In this document: positions 41,294 through 47,734 of the stretch, piece after piece
Position numbering within the stretch: the stretch's first letter is position 1
Layout of the letters: each line of letters starts with the position of its first letter
Origin: an uncultured archaeon
Lineage (GTDB): Archaea > Asgardarchaeota > Lokiarchaeia > Sigyniarchaeales > SOKP01
Assembly: GCA_964486045.1 (NCBI GenBank)
Contig: CAZALK010000001.1
Location: 712,242 to 776,241, forward strand
Direction: 5' to 3'
Length of the DNA stretch: 64,000 bases
Notes under the pieces: model-generated
The model's database searches: none
What the model saw: only the letters and a program-made list of their open reading frames with translations
Told to the model about the DNA's origin: nothing
Program-made: the position numbers and the translations under genes

Positions 41294-44245
41294 TTGACAA
41301 CTCTAACTTTAGATACTGAGAGAATTGAAAGTTTAATCCTAAAAGGCATTAATGAAAAAGCAGCTGAAGAAATATTTAATGTTATCGATGAGCATCAAAA
41401 CTTTGCTGATAACGATCTTATTTATAGGTGCTTTAGTTTATTAAACTTGATTTGTGATAAGTCTTCGTCCATTTCGCTAAGAACAGTAAAATATGTACAG
41501 CATTTTATAAATAATTCTGACTCTTGGATACGATTAGTTACTTTAGAAATTTTATATCAGATAAGTATGTTTAGGCCAAATTTATTTATTAATTTAATTA
41601 GTAAAATTAGGGGAAGACTTTACGATCAAGATCCGACAGTGAGAAGACTTACTGTAAAAATTATAGGTAATTTGATTTTAAAATTACATATTGATTTAGA
41701 TGAATTACAAGAAATAATTGAAGAATATACTGAAAAATTAATGGATAATGACTGGAAAGTAAAACTCAATGTGATTAAAACGGTTCAAAATATTTTAAAT
41801 CAAGACTATACAAAAATTAGAAATTTAGAACCTTTGTTATCAATGGTTATTATTAACCTAAGGGATGAAGATGATGATGTTGCGAAAGCAGCTGTAGAGT
41901 TACTAAAAATTCATGGAACATATTTCCTTTCAAAAGAGAAGTTATTTTATATTCTTCTTAACTTGCTGTATAATGAAGAAAATAGAGTAAAAGAATTGAT
42001 AATTTGGCTTTTTGGTGAGATTGGAAAAGAAAAATCTTCTGAAATTATATCTATTATCCCTAAATTAATAAAGCTCTTAAAAGAAAAAGATTATCGTATT
42101 CAACTAAAAGTGATTGAGGCACTTGTTAATATTGCAGAAAATAACTTTGATCAGATATGGGCGAATCTACTGCATTCTTTACAAGGAACTAAGCATTCTT
42201 ATTATAGAAATTCACTAATAAATGCAATATATCAACTCAGTCACAAAAACATTAACATCATTTTTTCTTATTTAATTGATGAATTAGAAAATCCCTCTGA
42301 AATTATTAGGGATGGGATTTCCTTAGTATTTAAACGATTATTTGAAGAATATCAAGTTGAAATAGAAAATGAAATTACAAGAATTTTATATAAACTGGAA
42401 TCACAATATTGGCGTGAAAGGAAGAAAACTATAAATCTACTAAACCAAATTTGTTTCATATTAAAAAATCAAAAAATAGCGGTTTGGATTACTATTGAAC
42501 TCAATAATTCGTTACAAACTGAAAAGGATCCAGAAGTCAAAGATGAAGTATTTTATACACTAGAAAATATTCAGGCAAATTTTAAAAACATCGATACTAC
42601 TATTGAAAGAATTAATAATGATTTAGTTATATTTCAAGGGAAAATACTCAAATTTCAAAAAATACCCGCACAATTTAGGGAAAAACTAAACTCTTATATT
42701 AACAATTTTAAGTTTAATGAAACAGAAGTTCAATTAAATAAAAAGTATAATAAAATTCTAAAAAAGATAAAAAAATTTGATAATATAATTAATAGATTCG
42801 AATTTAAAAGATTAGTATTTGATTTGATTGAAGAGTGGGAGGAAACAAAGGTTCAAATCATTGAGGAATTGAGTATCATAAAAAGTTTTATCTCTGAAAT
42901 CTGTGAAGAGAAAAAAAGCGAATTTTTATTCAAGTTACAAGAAGAAATTAAGTTATTGGATAAACGTATAAGTATTTTAAAAGCTGAGTTTGATTATATA
43001 AAAGAAAATGAATTTAGCGTAGAATTAGATTCTAATATATCTATCCTTACCGGAAATAATGATGAAAATGACAAATTTGTATATATAACTCAAATAAGGA
43101 AAAAGACTTTTAAATTAGATGGTGATATAAGAGAGTTATTGATAAATAATGTTGAATTTGATGATTCCTTTAAAGATCTGCTAAGAAAATGGGTATCAAC
43201 TAAAATTGAGATTCAGGAATACTTAATTGATTTAGATCGACAAATGAAAACAATTAAAGATAGTTTAGTCAGGCAAGTATTCCAGATAAACCAGGTTAAT
43301 AGAACTTCTAATGATATTGGAATTGCTGGCGTGAATGATGAATTAAGAATTCAATTGCTTCAAGGTCATATACAATCTATTATTACTGAGAGAATTGAAG
43401 GTAGCAAGAAATTAAAGGATAACTTTAGTACGTTAACTTCGAAGGTGGAATTTTTAATTAAAAAAAATGAATTCTCAGATGCAAAGAAATTAATTAGATT
43501 AAACTCTTCTCAAATCCAAAACTACATAGAAGAGACAGAAAAACAAATAGAAAACGTTATTGGGAAAGAAAAGGCTCTAGAAGATAATAACATATTCAAT
43601 TTATATGTAAGACCTTACCTTAAGAAATTTTATGCTTCGAAAGATTTATTAATAAATCGGTTAAAGAATTTTGTCAGAAAAAGTGAGAATAAACTCCATC
43701 TAAATCAGATTAAATATTATCGGAAAATTATTAATCCAATTAAATTTGAATTACTTTCATCATATCTAGATTTAGAAAAGGATAAAATAAAGGAGATTGC
43801 TCTTAGATTCATTAATAAAAATAAATTAAATGCCAAAATAATAGATGAAAAACTTTATTATCAAGAACTTGAATCCGATATCCCAGATTCAAAAGAAATT
43901 TTCTTTTTTAAAAATATAAGAACTTCTGGTAATGATATTTATTTAAATTGCAAACTTACTAATCCCTCAAATCTTGAGTTTAGAGATTTTCAGATTTCTT
44001 TAAAAGTGCCTACATATGTTCGTGTACAAAGAGAAGAAAGTTTTCCAAAATATCTCCAACTAAATGAACTGAAACCCGGTAAAGCTTTTAAATTTAATTA
44101 TGTGTTAAAAGTTGATAAACAACAAGAACTAAAGAAGAACTTATTTGACCCCGCTGGTGATGAAATCAAGTTAGAATTATTTTATAGAGACCAATATGAT
44201 AACATGAGAAAGACTACTAAACATATTGAAATCTTTCTACCATAA
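41294..44245 (+). CDS. HEAT-repeat / coiled-coil / PCI-like / Ig-like multidomain protein
   Basis: HEAT motifs (DQDPTVRR, DNDWKVK, DEDDDVAK), LSSYLDLEKDKIKEIALRFINKNKLNAKI (PCI-like winged helix), and a beta-sandwich-like C-terminus. Confidence 0.75.
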   Translation: MTTLTLDTERIESLILKGINEKAAEEIFNVIDEHQNFADNDLIYRCFSLLNLICDKSSSISLRTVKYVQHFINNSDSWIRLVTLEILYQISMFRPNLFINLISKIRGRLYDQDPTVRRLTVKIIGNLILKLHIDLDELQEIIEEYTEKLMDNDWKVKLNVIKTVQNILNQDYTKIRNLEPLLSMVIINLRDEDDDVAKAAVELLKIHGTYFLSKEKLFYILLNLLYNEENRVKELIIWLFGEIGKEKSSEIISIIPKLIKLLKEKDYRIQLKVIEALVNIAENNFDQIWANLLHSLQGTKHSYYRNSLINAIYQLSHKNINIIFSYLIDELENPSEIIRDGISLVFKRLFEEYQVEIENEITRILYKLESQYWRERKKTINLLNQICFILKNQKIAVWITIELNNSLQTEKDPEVKDEVFYTLENIQANFKNIDTTIERINNDLVIFQGKILKFQKIPAQFREKLNSYINNFKFNETEVQLNKKYNKILKKIKKFDNIINRFEFKRLVFDLIEEWEETKVQIIEELSIIKSFISEICEEKKSEFLFKLQEEIKLLDKRISILKAEFDYIKENEFSVELDSNISILTGNNDENDKFVYITQIRKKTFKLDGDIRELLINNVEFDDSFKDLLRKWVSTKIEIQEYLIDLDRQMKTIKDSLVRQVFQINQVNRTSNDIGIAGVNDELRIQLLQGHIQSIITERIEGSKKLKDNFSTLTSKVEFLIKKNEFSDAKKLIRLNSSQIQNYIEETEKQIENVIGKEKALEDNNIFNLYVRPYLKKFYASKDLLINRLKNFVRKSENKLHLNQIKYYRKIINPIKFELLSSYLDLEKDKIKEIALRFINKNKLNAKIIDEKLYYQELESDIPDSKEIFFFKNIRTSGNDIYLNCKLTNPSNLEFRDFQISLKVPTYVRVQREESFPKYLQLNELKPGKAFKFNYVLKVDKQQELKKNLFDPAGDEIKLELFYRDQYDNMRKTTKHIEIFLP

Positions 44246-44383: not shown

Positions 44384-45418
44384 ATGCAAGAGTTAGAAAA
44401 TTATCGATTGACATTGCAAACGAAACTATTTGGTTGAAATTGTAAACTGGATGCGAAAATTTTAGACAGCCTTTTATCTAAAGTAGGTTTAAAAGGAGAT
44501 ATCGAAGATTCTGCTGTAATTCCTGTGCCTAATACCAACCTCGTTATGGTAAAGAACCTTGACATATTCACACCTATCCTAGACGAACCAGAAATAACTG
44601 GAGAGATTGCTGCTGTTAATGTTACTAATGATGTCTTTGCTTTGAATGTTCGCGATATTTCGGGTATGCTCGTATTCCTTGGAATCAAGAAGAACATGCC
44701 AACGTATGTTTCAGAAGGTATACTTCGTGGGATGAAAAATTTCATGGAACACAAAATAAATTCCAAAATCTTAGGGGGTCATACAATATACTCTGAATGG
44801 CCTCTGATAGGTGGAGAAGCTTCAGGATTCGTTGAGAAAAGCAAGATAATACAAAAGAACTATGTTGAATTAGGAGATAAATTAATCCTTACCAAGCCCA
44901 TTGGGAATCAAGCCATTATGGCAGCATATCGTCTACAGAAAAACAACCCCGCCCTTTTAGAAAGTTATTCATCAACCGAAATTGATACTTCAATTGAGAC
45001 CGCAATTAATCTTATGATAACACCGCTTCAAGATGTCGTAAAAACCATATATTCCTACGACGACACATCGTTTATCCATGGAATGACAGACGTGTCTGGA
45101 TTTGGCTTAGCAGGACATTTAAAAGAAATGCTCCAGGATTCACAGCTTTCAGCAGTAATCGAAAAAATCCCAAGTATTAAACTGACACAAGACTTAGCTC
45201 ATGAATTCGGATACAAATATGATGAATGTGAAATGCCTGAGACTGCTGGTGGGATGCTTCTATCTGTAGATCATAAATATGCTAATGAATTCACGGAAAA
45301 ACTAAACAGTGAATACGGAGTGAAAAATTGGATAATAGGGTCGATCGATAACAAAAGCAAACTTAAACATGTTCGCGTTTCCAAAAACGTTGAGCATCTT
45401 GAAATAACTAAAATATAA
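44384..45418 (+). CDS. selD: Selenophosphate synthetase, selenoprotein (UGA=Sec at 44435-44437), 344 aa
   Basis: GAGGTGA SD, then MQELENYRLTLQTKLFG-U-NCKL in frame with EDSAV, LDIFTPI, NDVFA, GGHT, LTKPIG, TDVSGFGLAGH, ETAGG. Confidence 0.93.
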
Positions 45419-45559: not shown

Positions 45560-46492
45560 TTGTATTTGGTGTTATTCATAATATTGACAGAAATAAAAGA
45601 AATTCTGAGATTATTGAATGCTACTTCAGAGGATAAAGTTAATTTTAAAGATAAAGTAATTTCTTTTCAAGGTTACAGTTTTATGTTTCGAGATCCCTAC
45701 TTAAAGTCACAAGATTCATATGTAACCGGAAAATTTAGTAGCAAATTCTCTTCGGTGGGATTTTGGAGTGATATCATAAAATATTCTTTAGAAAATCTTA
45801 ACAAAATAAAGAACCTTAATGACCTTAATTTAGAAGATACCAAGCACGATTTTCTTTACGGGGGTTCTTTGAAGACACTCGTGCCATCCTTAAAGTTTGG
45901 AGGGGATGAAGTTTTGTTTGATGTCTGGATACTTGTAAAAACTCCCGAGGGTTTCATTTTTCCCGCAACGCTTTACTATGGTAAAACAGGAACATCGTTA
46001 GGGGGTTGGTATATAGATGATGCCAAGGAAGTATTCCCCCCCGAGTTTTTTTCACTCATCAATTTCAGCCCATTTGATTTCGCACCCGAAGAGCGCAATG
46101 CGTTTATTGAAGCTCTTGAACTCTCACTTAAGATGGTACCCGTTACTGATTATTACGGCATCTGTAAGGGGGAGAATGGCTATACAATTATGGGTGTTAA
46201 AGATGGCAAACCATACCTCAAGGAACTTGGTTGGGTCTATGACGAGGTCAAAGAAGATAGGTCTTTTGACACGACAACAGATTTAAGAAAACGTTATTAT
46301 GTTGAGGGATATTTAGAAGAGCAAAACTTCGCGATTTGGTGTGCTGACTGTATTCTTGAACAAGAAATTGAAGTCCCTCATTATCCAATTTTTGTTCAGG
46401 GATATGAAGATAGCCCAGTTTGCGAGATTTGTGATAAAGAATTGAAAGTAAAAGTAGTTAATTACAGCAATGAACCAAGTGAAGGAGATTAA
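45560..46492 (+). CDS. Hypothetical protein with C-terminal CxxC..CxxC
   Basis: ~300-aa ORF between the two selD copies, with CADC and CEIC. The start is uncertain (possibly TTG 45584). Confidence 0.7.
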   Translation: MYLVLFIILTEIKEILRLLNATSEDKVNFKDKVISFQGYSFMFRDPYLKSQDSYVTGKFSSKFSSVGFWSDIIKYSLENLNKIKNLNDLNLEDTKHDFLYGGSLKTLVPSLKFGGDEVLFDVWILVKTPEGFIFPATLYYGKTGTSLGGWYIDDAKEVFPPEFFSLINFSPFDFAPEERNAFIEALELSLKMVPVTDYYGICKGENGYTIMGVKDGKPYLKELGWVYDEVKEDRSFDTTTDLRKRYYVEGYLEEQNFAIWCADCILEQEIEVPHYPIFVQGYEDSPVCEICDKELKVKVVNYSNEPSEGD

Positions 46493-46606: not shown

Positions 46607-47665
46607 ATGCCTAGAAAAATAGAATATAGGTTAACAAAGCAAGTGAAAATTTTTGGTTGATCATGTAAATTAGGTGCTAATGAATTACATAAATTGCTAG
46701 AGAAAACTGGTTTGGCTGGAGATATTGAAGATGCTGCCATTATTCCTGTTCCTAATACTGACATTGTTCAAGTGAAGAGTTTAGACATTTTTACCCCTAT
46801 CGTTGATGAGCCTAATATAATGGGGCAAATAGCTGCTTGCAATGTAACGAACGATCTTTTCGCAATGAATGTTCCTGAAATATCGGGGATGCTGGTCTTT
46901 TTAGGAATTAGTACTAATACACCAATGGAGGTTGCTGAGGGAATATTAGAAGGAATCAAATATTTTGTGGAAAAAAAGATCCATTCTAAAGTAGTGGGAG
47001 GCCATACTATTTACTCCGAGTGGCCTTTAATCAAAAAAGTTGTCCTTTTTTGAGGGGAGATCGGAGGAGAGGCTTCTGGATTTGTCCACAAGGATTCTAT
47101 AATTTTGAAACAAGGTGTAAAAAAAGGTGATAAGTTGATATTAACAAAACCAGTCGGTATTCAACCAGTAATGGCTGCATATAGAATGTTAAAAGACTTT
47201 CCTGAAATGTTAGAAGAGTTTTCTAAAAAAGAACTTAATAAATCTATCGATATTGCAATTAAGATAATGACTACGTCAAATCAGAATGTGGTGAAGACTA
47301 TTCACTCTCTTAATGATTTTTCATTTATTCATGCAATGACAGACATTACAGGCTTCGGGCTTGCTGGACACATGCTAGAAATTCTTCAGAACTCGAATTT
47401 ATCAGCAATTATTGAAACAATCCCCTCTATTAAACTCTCTGAAAGTTTATCAAAAGAGATGGGTTATGCTTTTGATGAATGTAAATGTGGAGAGACGGCT
47501 GGGGGTATGCTCATGGCGGTCGATTCTTCAAAAACCGAGGATTTTTCACACACTCTCTCAAGTAATGGAATATTGAATTGGATTGTAGGTACTATTGATA
47601 CAATATCTCCTGGACTTGTGAGAATTTCAAAAAATGTTAAAAATTTAGAAATTTCAAGAATATAA
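46607..47665 (+). CDS. selD: Second selenophosphate synthetase (Sec at 46658-46660), join(46607..47029,47060..47665), 342 aa after intron removal
   Basis: GAGGTGA SD, then MPRKIEYRLTKQVKIFG-U-SCKL. All three ORF pieces are in one frame. A 30-nt insert with TGA splits WPL|IGGEASG. Confidence 0.88.
47030..47059 (+). other. Candidate BHB (tRNA-type) intron in the selD2 mRNA
   Basis: CCTT-TA^A-[TCAAAAAAG ttgtc CTTTTTTGA]-GGGG-AG^A. It has a 4-bp central helix, two 3-nt bulges and a 9-bp intron stem. Excision restores the paralogue sequence. Confidence 0.85.
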
Positions 47666-47734
47666 CTCCAAAAAGAATGAATTTTGTGAAGAAATGTTAG
47701 TCGCAAAATAACTGCCTAGCAAGGGTATTTGGAG
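47666..47734 (+). promoter_or_regulatory. SECIS-like element of selD2 with variant core
   Basis: CTCCAAA...ATGA(47677)-ATTTTGTGA-loop AGAAATGTTAG-TCGCAAAAT-AA...TTTGGAG. The 3' core is AA instead of GA. Confidence 0.65.

What the first reader, a model, noticed from the sequence alone, without database searches (positions are those of the whole stretch)
47021..47066. Candidate tRNA-type (bulge-helix-bulge) intron inside an Asgard protein-coding gene, selD2
Seen: relative to the adjacent paralogue (TGG CCT CTG ATA GGT GGA GAA, WPLIGGE), selD2 has exactly 30 extra nt containing an in-frame TGA (47051-47053). The region folds as CCUU(47024-27):GGGG(47054-57) central 4-bp helix, a 3-nt bulge UAA(47028-30), a perfect 9-bp stem UCAAAAAAG/CUUUUUUGA with a 5-nt loop, a 3-nt bulge AGA(47058-60) and exon-exon pairing (UGG/UCG, or CUCCGA/UCGGAG). 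Known: archaeal splicing endonuclease (EndA) cuts after the second nt of each bulge. Those cuts remove 47030-47059 and give TGG CCT TTA|ATC GGA GGA GAG = WPLIGGE, identical to the paralogue and yielding a 342-aa SelD (selD1 is 344 aa). BHB introns in archaeal mRNAs are best known from crenarchaeal cbf5. I do not know of one in selD or in Asgard mRNA but cannot check. Inference: this is EndA/RtcB-spliced mRNA that pipelines would call a pseudogene, and it may gate selenophosphate synthesis.
Basis: partly seen in the sequence, partly recalled or inferred. Interest (0 to 1): 0.95.

Follow-up and report, generated by a model that had tools for sequence, protein, structure and literature searches.

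The report
tRNA-type mini-intron inside Asgard selD
The 30-base insert that seems to break the second selenophosphate synthetase gene (selD2) of this Loki-type Asgard archaeon is a conserved intron of the kind normally cut out of tRNAs, so the mRNA is very probably spliced by the tRNA-splicing enzymes; the papers I could search describe this inside a coding sequence for only one other archaeal gene (cbf5).

Summary

The intron reading is strongly supported by comparison, but not by RNA data; no RNA run was available.
- I found 16 distinct versions of this insert at the same codon junction (WPL|IGGE), in both selD paralogues of this genus. They are 28, 29, 30 or 31 nt long.
- Eight break the reading frame and two carry an in-frame TGA (9 of 16 unreadable).
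- Cutting after the second base of each bulge restores an intact, single-Sec SelD of about 340-350 aa in all 16.
- Both exons are under strong purifying selection (dN/dS 0.05-0.19), including downstream of frame-breaking inserts.
- The central helix pairs in 100% of cells, and there are compensatory changes.
- The exon's Pro codon is CCY in 15/16 intron-bearing genes but CCA/CCG in 36/48 intron-less ones.
- Presence is patchy: at least 8-10 gains or losses.
- The genome encodes two EndA paralogues and RtcB.

The idea that the intron "gates" selenophosphate synthesis has no support.

This scan has noted selD and other mRNA BHB introns on other Asgard DNA. Two other Asgard families carry a 30-nt selD insert at a different site, perhaps the one in those notes. 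At least five other genes in this genome carry the same kind of insert.

The parts
46607..47029 (+). selD2 exon 1 (ATG 46607; Sec codon TGA 46658-46660; ends ...TGG CCT TTA = WPL)
   Evidence: Translation; Pfam AIRS N-terminal domain; dN/dS 0.05-0.10 against relatives.
47030..47059 (+). 30-nt BHB intron with an in-frame TGA at 47051-47053; its first base is the third bulge base and its last two bases are the first two bases of the 3' bulge
   Evidence: It is absent from selD1 and from 52 of 54 genus genomes. 15 further homologous versions were found.
47060..47666 (+). selD2 exon 2 (starts ATC GGA GGA GAG = IGGE; stop TAA 47664-47666)
   Evidence: Pfam AIRS_C; dN/dS 0.08-0.12.
47024..47027 (+). 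5' strand of the 4-bp central helix (CCUU, exon), pairing with 47054-47057
   Evidence: This helix is 100% paired in 12 homologues with covariation. Pro-codon third-base bias is shown.
47054..47057 (+). 3' strand of the central helix (GGGG, intron)
47028..47030 (+). 5' bulge UAA; predicted cut between 47029 and 47030
   Evidence: The cut position follows the established EndA rule of cleavage after the second bulge nucleotide.
47058..47060 (+). 3' bulge AGA; predicted cut between 47059 and 47060
47031..47053 (+). Intron hairpin: 9-bp stem 47031-47039 / 47045-47053 with 5-nt loop 47040-47044
   Evidence: The stem is 92% paired across homologues, with compensatory pairs GC10/AU2 and AU4/GC2/GU1.
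47014..47023 (+). Exon-1 side of the weak outer helix: UGG 47021-23 pairing with UCG 47061-63, or CUCCGA 47014-19 pairing with UCGGAG 47061-66
   Evidence: Paired in 85-92% of cells with no covariation, so this looks like a relaxed (HBh'-like) motif.
44384..45418 (+). selD1, the intron-less paralogue (Sec TGA 44435-44437), reading WPLIGGE without a break
   Evidence: Its orthologues carry the same intron in four other assemblies.
47666..47734 (+). Candidate SECIS-like 3'-UTR stem with AUGA at 47677-47680 (not validated)
   Evidence: Fold. The literature places a type II eSECIS-like element downstream of Asgard selD (PMC4989117, PMC11227280). Rfam gave no hit.

Best explanation
Window 47030-47059 is a bulge-helix-bulge (tRNA-type) mini-intron in the selD2 pre-mRNA.

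The proposed mechanism is as follows. The transcript folds so that four exon bases (CCUU) pair with four intron bases (GGGG). This central helix is flanked by two 3-nt bulges on opposite strands and capped by a 9-bp/5-nt intron hairpin. The archaeal splicing endonuclease cuts after the second base of each bulge. This genome has two EndA paralogues, consistent with the broad-specificity (alpha-beta)2 form reported for Asgard archaea. RtcB then joins the exons to give ...TGG CCT TTA|ATC GGA GGA..., and probably releases a 30-nt circle. The spliced mRNA encodes a normal 342-aa, single-Sec SelD.

What is shown:
- the structure, its conservation and its covariation;
- that the insert cannot be translated in most lineages;
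- that the exons are under selection;
- that the enzymes are encoded in the genome.

What is inferred: the cleavage, the ligation, and the enzymes that perform them.

The intron looks like a tolerated passenger that is often lost precisely or moved between alleles and paralogues by recombination. It does not look like a regulator.
For: 1. Sixteen distinct homologous inserts sit at the identical junction. Lengths are 28 (x1), 29 (x3), 30 (x8) and 31 (x4) nt. Eight break the frame; G000 and L083 carry an in-frame TGA.
2. Excision at the BHB-predicted sites gives an intact 334-352 aa SelD (the 334-aa one, L040, is cut by its contig end) with exactly one Sec and a proper stop in all 16. No other lesion occurs anywhere in about 1 kb of gene.
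3. dN/dS is 0.05-0.19 on both exons at dS 0.3-1.9, including exon 2 downstream of 29- and 31-nt inserts.
4. On 12 sequences, 94% of cells pair and the central helix pairs in 100%. Pair types include UA7/CG3/UG2 and UG6/UA5/CG1, and stem pairs GC10/AU2. The covariation score beats 500 of 500 shuffles, and pairing collapses to 40-70% when partners are slid by 1-3 columns.
5. A divergent version (L040) has an unrelated stem sequence and a register shifted by 2 nt. It keeps the same plan of 4-bp helix, two 3-nt bulges, 9-position stem and 5-nt loop, and still restores LIGGE.
6. The exon Pro codon that pairs with the intron is CCY in 15/16 intron-bearing genes and CCA/CCG in 36/48 intron-less ones (Fisher p about 1e-6, not corrected for phylogeny).
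7. Inside the insert, minor codons (ATC 16%, CTT 20%, CGA 16% of their families) are nearly invariant. The Ile codon just after it drifts among ATC, ATT and ATA.
8. On one contig (L046) both selD paralogues carry frame-breaking inserts of 28 and 29 nt.
9. The insert occurs in both paralogue clades and needs at least 8-10 precise gains or losses.
10. The genome holds two EndA paralogues and RtcB. Asgard EndA is reported as (alpha-beta)2 with the broad-specificity L1 loop (PMC5829648).
11. The same architecture interrupts rnhB, a thiolase, a BadF/BcrA-type ATPase and a nucleoside phosphorylase-like gene in this genome. For the thiolase and the ATPase the two exon halves abut in one Pfam profile; for the phosphorylase-like gene they hit successive Pfam domains.
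Against: - No RNA evidence of any kind. No RNA run holds this DNA.
- The exon-exon outer helix is weak (U-G, G-C, G-U) and shows no covariation. The motif is therefore relaxed rather than the strict hBHBh' form.
- The MFE z-score is only -1.54.
- In some homologues (G014, L041, L042, L093) the BHB fold lies 4-6 kcal/mol above a competing fold.
- L039 and L040 each have a stem mismatch. L083 has an A-A mismatch in the central helix and an extra, bulged U in the stem.
- Seven of the 16 versions are open in frame. Unspliced mRNA could be translated in those lineages.
- The sequences are related, so the shuffle statistics overstate independence.
Confidence: 0.88

Rival explanations
1. The insert is a real, translated 10-residue insertion in SelD2. 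In G000 its TGA is either a second selenocysteine read with the 3'-UTR SECIS or a recent nonsense mutation of CGA.
For: Seven of the 16 versions are 30 nt and open in frame, with a loosely similar peptide (E-x-x-V/I-L-F-R-x-E). G000's TGA is one transition from the CGA seen in relatives. Loki-type archaea do make multi-Sec proteins with a single SECIS (PMC4989117).
Against: Eight versions are 28, 29 or 31 nt long and shift the frame, yet exon 2 stays under dN/dS of about 0.1. The TGA position aligns with Arg, Gln or Lys, never Cys. Between G000 and G014, 5 of the 6 differences are first-codon-position, non-synonymous changes that keep base pairs. The nearly invariant codons are minor ones. The site is contiguous (PW-IV-LGG) in human SEPHS1 and all other SelD.
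Confidence: 0.03
2. selD2 of G000, and the other interrupted copies, are pseudogenes decaying after a small insertion. selD1 does the work.
For: G000 has an intact selD1 next door. Annotation pipelines would call selD2 broken.
Against: All nine disabling lesions fall inside the same 28-31 nt, and none falls in the remaining 1 kb or so of any of the 16 genes. dN/dS is 0.08-0.12 downstream of the lesion at dS up to 1.9. On one contig both paralogues are interrupted. In G014 the only selD found carries the insert.
Confidence: 0.04
3. The insert stays in the mRNA and ribosomes hop over it, by programmed translational bypassing as in phage T4 gene 60. A hairpin and matched take-off and landing Ile codons would direct the hop.
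For: In G000 the gap is flanked by ATC...ATC and contains a hairpin and a stop codon.
Against: The take-off and landing codons do not match in many versions: ATC versus ATA in L037, L038, L044 and L093, and TTC versus ATC in L046b. No stop follows the take-off codon. Bypassing does not explain the conserved 4-bp exon-intron helix, the two 3-nt bulges, or the Pro-codon covariation.
Confidence: 0.03
4. The 30 nt are an assembly or sequencing artefact.
For: None found.
Against: An independent Logan assembly of the source run has it at depth 242. A second run of the same study holds a roughly 88% identical relative with no gap at the insert. Homologous inserts occur in more than 12 unrelated assemblies from JGI, ENA, NCBI and Logan.
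Confidence: 0.005

Closest known systems
cbf5 pre-mRNA BHB intron of Crenarchaeota (Watanabe 2002; Yokobori 2009, PMC2738675)
   Same: A BHB intron inside a protein-coding sequence. It must be removed for a functional protein, shows lineage-specific precise loss, and is presumed to be cut by EndA.
   Different: A different gene, phylum and site, so it is not homologous. Here the intron is a fixed mini-intron of about 30 nt, occurs in two paralogues, is far patchier (2 of 54 species representatives), and sits in a selenoprotein gene of an Asgard archaeon. cbf5 splicing was shown experimentally; this one was not.
Non-canonical BHB introns of Asgard and TACK tRNA genes, cut by (alpha-beta)2 EndA with the L1 loop (PMC5829648; bioRxiv 10.64898/2026.10.13.758758)
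   Same: The same motif geometry: a 4-bp helix, two 3-nt bulges, and a cut after the second bulge base. The central helix is part exon and part intron. The outer helix is relaxed. The enzymes are present in this genome.
   Different: The host is an mRNA coding region, not a tRNA. No tRNA body is available to help recognition, so cleavage must rely on the BHB alone.
BHB intron in the 5' UTR of Haloferax volcanii HVO_1309 mRNA (PMC7714728)
   Same: An mRNA substrate of the splicing endonuclease. In that case cleavage was confirmed in vivo and in vitro.
   Different: That intron lies in the untranslated leader, so no reading frame depends on it. It is in a euryarchaeon with alpha'2 EndA.
selD and other mRNA BHB inserts noted earlier by this scan in other Asgard genomes (unpublished AI notes e1-5424999, e1-5423781, e1-1175089, e1-5426028)
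   Same: The same gene family (selD) or the same 30-31 nt architecture, and the same inferred mechanism.
   Different: The 30-nt selD insert I saw in two other Asgard families lies near codon 90 (NDVY.V|...), not at WPL|IGGE, so it has an independent position. I could not confirm that those families are the Jordarchaeia of the notes.

Membership tests
Archaeal BHB (EndA-type) intron | [quoted passage not shown] | tested here: met
   G000 has CCUU/GGGG with bulges UAA and AGA in the unconstrained MFE fold. 13 of 16 homologues pass a strict scan and 3 show one mismatch.
Archaeal BHB (EndA-type) intron | Flanking helices: an inner (intron) helix h' and an outer (exon-exon) helix h | tested here: inconclusive
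   The inner helix is a 9-bp stem, 92% paired with compensatory changes. The outer helix is only U-G/G-C/G-U or an offset 6-bp helix, with no covariation. This fits a relaxed HBh' motif, which (alpha-beta)2 EndA is reported to accept (PMC5829648).
Archaeal BHB (EndA-type) intron | Cuts after the second base of each bulge give a functional product | tested here: met
   The predicted cuts restore WPLIGGE and an intact single-Sec SelD in all 16 versions, including the register-shifted L040.
Archaeal BHB (EndA-type) intron | Structure, not coding content, is conserved | tested here: met
   Lengths are 28-31 nt and 9 of 16 are untranslatable. The covariation score beats 500 of 500 shuffles. Exon Pro-codon covariation is shown.
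Archaeal BHB (EndA-type) intron | Splicing endonuclease and RtcB ligase are encoded by the host | tested here: met
   Two PF01974 paralogues (102 and 67 bits) and one RtcB (557 bits) in G000.
Archaeal BHB (EndA-type) intron | Spliced RNA, a circular intron, or in-vitro cleavage is observed | not testable with these tools
   No RNA run holds this DNA.
cbf5 intron family (homology) | Located in cbf5 at the catalytic-residue codon of Desulfurococcales and Sulfolobales | tested here: not met
   The host gene is selD (Pfam AIRS and AIRS_C) in an Asgard genome. It works like the cbf5 intron but is not a member of that family.
Second selenocysteine codon | The UGA aligns with Cys or Sec in homologues, and the flanking peptide is conserved in frame | tested here: not met
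   It aligns with Arg, Gln or Lys, or lies out of frame.
Programmed translational bypass (gene 60 type) | Matched take-off and landing codons, with a stop right after take-off | tested here: not met
   The codons are ATC/ATA or TTC/ATC in five versions, and AAA or GAA follows the take-off codon.
Mobile repeat or MITE-like element | Multiple copies in the genome | tested here: not met
   Covariance model R1 finds only the selD2 copy in G000, and only G000 and G014 in 135 genomes of the family. The weak hits are ordinary coding sequence.

The most novel reading that the evidence does not exclude
This intron may be one visible piece of a genome-wide system. In this genus, and apparently more widely in Asgard archaea, many protein-coding genes carry BHB mini-introns of about 30 nt with a stereotyped 9-bp/5-nt hairpin. 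The genes I saw here are selD, rnhB, thiolase, a BadF-type ATPase and a nucleoside phosphorylase, plus, by motif only, RNA polymerase A' and mevalonate kinase. If so, EndA and RtcB act as a routine mRNA-splicing machinery in the closest archaeal relatives of eukaryotes. The introns would be gained, precisely lost and moved between alleles and paralogues by recombination.
Probability: 0.6. Interest if true: 0.92.

Novelty: new member of a known kind. Interest (0 to 1): 0.8.

Why it matters
- In the papers I could search, BHB introns inside archaeal coding sequences rest on a single gene family, cbf5. A second gene family, in Asgard archaea, with frame-breaking variants and exon-intron covariation would show that protein-based tRNA-type splicing of mRNA is not a crenarchaeal oddity.
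- It bears on how much RNA splicing the archaeal ancestors of eukaryotes already performed.
- It has practical weight. Gene callers split or discard these genes, so selenoproteome and metabolic reconstructions of Asgard MAGs undercount functional genes.
- The patchy, two-paralogue distribution offers a natural system to study intron gain, precise loss and gene conversion in archaea.
- It is directly testable with a short transcript and recombinant EndA.

Tried and rejected
- **RNA evidence:** no RNA holder was listed for the stretch, so expression and splicing could not be examined.
- **Rfam and ARAGORN on the window:** nothing found.
- **ARAGORN on the genome:** it lists 31 tRNA-like calls, many doubtful. 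It was not used as a BHB control.
- **Other copies of this intron:** covariance model R1 found none in G000 or in 135 genomes of the family. Three weak hits were ordinary coding sequence in an ArgRS-like gene, a dehydrogenase and an unannotated stretch.
- **GTDB representatives:** a structure-agnostic DNA pattern found only one archaeal hit, G014 (a Promethearchaeota MAG), besides G000. The rest were chance hits in GC-rich bacteria.
- **ORF-only count of mRNA BHB introns in G000:** this failed. Observed counts (185 and 62) equal those of shifted-site controls (176-211 and 60-75), so no genome-wide number is claimed. Only individually checked genes are reported.
- **DNA for P0004 and P0005:** not retrievable because the sample file is too large.
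- **Same selD site in other Asgard families:** the idea that their insert sits at this site was tested and rejected. It lies near codon 90.
- **Outer exon-exon helix:** two alternatives were tested and neither shows covariation.
- **Not run:** structure prediction and complex prediction, because they would not discriminate between the hypotheses.

Full report
**Observation.** selD2 runs from ATG 46607 to TAA 47666 on the + strand, with the selenocysteine TGA at codon 18. Its neighbour selD1 (44384-45418) is 60% identical. The two differ by one clean 10-residue gap at WPL|IGGE. The extra 30 nt are 47030-47059 and contain an in-frame TGA at 47051-53.
- outer helix CUCCGA/UCGGAG;
- 4-bp central helix CCUU/GGGG;
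- 3-nt bulges UAA and AGA on opposite strands;
- a 9-bp stem with a 5-nt loop.

The geometry matches the canonical tRNA 37/38 BHB: on both strands, read 5' to 3', each bulge follows the central helix. By the established EndA rule, the cuts after the second bulge base remove 47030-47059 and give TGG CCT TTA|ATC GGA. The fold is not significant by energy alone (z = -1.54).

**Not an artefact.** An independent Logan contig of the source run carries the insert at depth 242. A contig about 88% identical from a second run of the same study spans the site with no gap at the insert. A roughly 87% identical contig from a third run lacks exactly 30 nt.

**Relatives.**
- In 54 species-representative genomes of the genus, only G000 and G014 have an insert here.
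- A scan of all GTDB representatives adds nothing.
- Searching 5.8 billion proteins and then fetching the DNA gave many more. The JGI metagenome scan added further versions.
- In total there are 16 distinct versions at the same junction, with lengths 28 (1), 29 (3), 30 (8) and 31 (4) nt.
- Eight shift the frame. G000 and L083 also carry an in-frame TGA. Gene callers split such genes into two ORFs.

**The insert is not translated.**
- After excision, every one of the 16 genes gives an intact SelD with one Sec and a proper stop (334-352 aa as extracted; the 334-aa L040 is cut by its contig end). No other lesion occurs anywhere.
- dN/dS is 0.05-0.19 for both exons at dS 0.3-1.9, including exon 2 behind 29- and 31-nt inserts and behind G000's stop.
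- One contig (L046) has both paralogues interrupted, by 28 and 29 nt.
- In frame-open versions the G000 TGA position is Arg, Gln or Lys, never Cys.
- The nearly invariant ATC, CTT and CGA codons are minor codons in this genome, at 16-20% of their families. The Ile codon just after the insert drifts freely.
- The junction is uninterrupted in human SEPHS1 and in all other Asgard SelD examined.

**The structure is conserved.**
- On 12 aligned versions, 94% of cells pair.
- The central helix pairs in 100% of cells, with pair types UA7/CG3/UG2 and UG6/UA5/CG1.
- The stem has compensatory pairs GC10/AU2 and AU4/GC2/GU1.
- The covariation score exceeds all 500 shuffles.
- Sliding the partners by 1-3 columns drops pairing to 40-70%.
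- L040 has an unrelated stem sequence and a register shifted by 2 nt, yet keeps the same plan and restores LIGGE.
- The exon Pro codon whose third base pairs with the intron is CCY in 15/16 intron-bearing genes, but CCA/CCG in 36/48 intron-less ones.

Weak points:
- the outer exon-exon helix is weak and does not covary;
- three versions carry a mismatch;
- in four versions a competing fold is 4-6 kcal/mol more stable.

**Distribution.** A SelD tree separates the two paralogues. The intron occurs in 4 of 25 selD1 rows and 12 of 35 selD2 rows, which needs at least 8-10 gains or losses. Around the intron, G014 shares CCC...ATTGGGGGCGAA with selD1-type carriers rather than with its own clade. That hints at transfer by gene conversion. 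This is an inference.

The intron is not a repeat. Covariance model R1 finds no other copy in G000 or in the family.

**Machinery.** G000 has two EndA paralogues and RtcB. Asgard EndA is described as (alpha-beta)2 with the broad-specificity L1 loop (PMC5829648; bioRxiv 10.64898/2026.10.13.758758).

**Rivals.** Four rivals are each contradicted by the data above and together get about 10%:
- a translated insertion or second Sec;
- a pseudogene;
- gene-60-like bypassing, where take-off and landing codons mismatch in five versions;
- an assembly artefact.

**Known context.** In the library I searched, BHB introns in mRNAs are reported only for crenarchaeal cbf5 (coding) and the Haloferax HVO_1309 5' UTR (PMC2738675, PMC7714728). 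Searches found nothing on selD or Asgard mRNA introns, and the Asgard selenoproteome papers do not mention one.

Earlier AI notes of this scan report selD BHB introns in Jordarchaeia and other mRNA introns in Asgard genomes. I found a 30-nt selD insert with a TAA in two other Asgard families, at a different site near codon 90. Following the RNase HII lead, I found that G000's rnhB carries a 30-nt insert of identical architecture that restores GIDEAGRGPVIGPL.

My own scan found further examples:
- a thiolase and a BadF/BcrA-type ATPase, whose exon halves abut in one Pfam profile;
- a nucleoside phosphorylase-like gene, whose halves hit successive Pfam domains;
- a PurM-like gene, where only exon 2 hits a profile.

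**Verdict.** This is a real BHB mini-intron in an Asgard selenoprotein mRNA (confidence about 0.88). Its mechanism is a known kind; the host gene and lineage are new. Splicing itself remains to be shown. No evidence supports a regulatory 'gate'.

Noticed in passing
G000 contig C1, about 474,282-474,911, minus strand (outside the window; locus L114): The RNase HII gene is interrupted inside GIDEAG-R|GPVIGPL by a 30-nt insert with an in-frame TAA. It has the same architecture: central helix UGGU/GCCA, bulges AGA and AAA, a 9-bp stem and a 5-nt loop. BHB cuts restore the canonical motif.
   Followed up: partly
G000 C3:186175-186204 (+), C7:54809-54835 (+), C7:186723-186752 (-), C5:195271-195300 (+); loci L115-L122: Four more genes carry 27-30 nt BHB-shaped inserts with in-frame stops: a thiolase, a BadF/BcrA-type ATPase, an AMP/thymidine phosphorylase-like gene and a PurM-like gene. 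For the thiolase (Thiolase_N 1-89 then 94-258) and the ATPase (PF01869 1-135 then 137-271) the exon halves abut in one Pfam profile. For the phosphorylase-like gene they hit successive domains (Glycos_trans_3N, then Glycos_transf_3 from position 11). For the PurM-like gene only exon 2 hits a profile (AIRS 43-97).
   Followed up: partly
G000 C13:44101-44130 (+) and C11:28707-28737 (+): By motif only, a 30-nt insert splits GHFGH|IELARP of RNA polymerase A'. A 31-nt insert splits the ILFGEH|VVYG motif of a mevalonate-kinase-like gene. An ORF-only count of such introns was no higher than controls, so no genome-wide number can be given.
   Followed up: no
Loci L099, L100, L101, L105, L106 (other Asgard families f23 and f12): In these families selD has a different 30-nt insert with an in-frame TAA, near codon 90 (NDVY.V|...|.V.FLAILG). 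This is a second, independent intron position in the same gene family.
   Followed up: partly
window 47024-47026 and homologues: The Pro codon before the intron is CCT or CCC in 15/16 intron-bearing genes, but CCA or CCG in 36/48 intron-less genes. A synonymous exon site is fixed by pairing with the intron.
   Followed up: yes
window 45560-46492 (+): A 310-aa ORF with no Pfam match lies between selD1 and selD2 in G000. In relatives the two selD genes are adjacent, or an HGD-D family gene sits there instead.
   Followed up: no
window 41294-44245 (+): A 983-aa ORF lies directly upstream of selD1, with conserved synteny. Its counterparts in relatives carry HEAT and Adaptin_N-like Pfam hits. It may be of interest as an Asgard eukaryote-signature-like protein.
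   Followed up: no
locus L093 (LAZR01001251.1, marine sediment metagenome): An LAZR-prefixed marine sediment metagenome contig carries a selD1-type gene with a frame-breaking 31-nt version of this intron. This may be the 'Laz' assembly mined for Loki-like SPS genes in PMC4989117, which does not report an insert in them.
   Followed up: no
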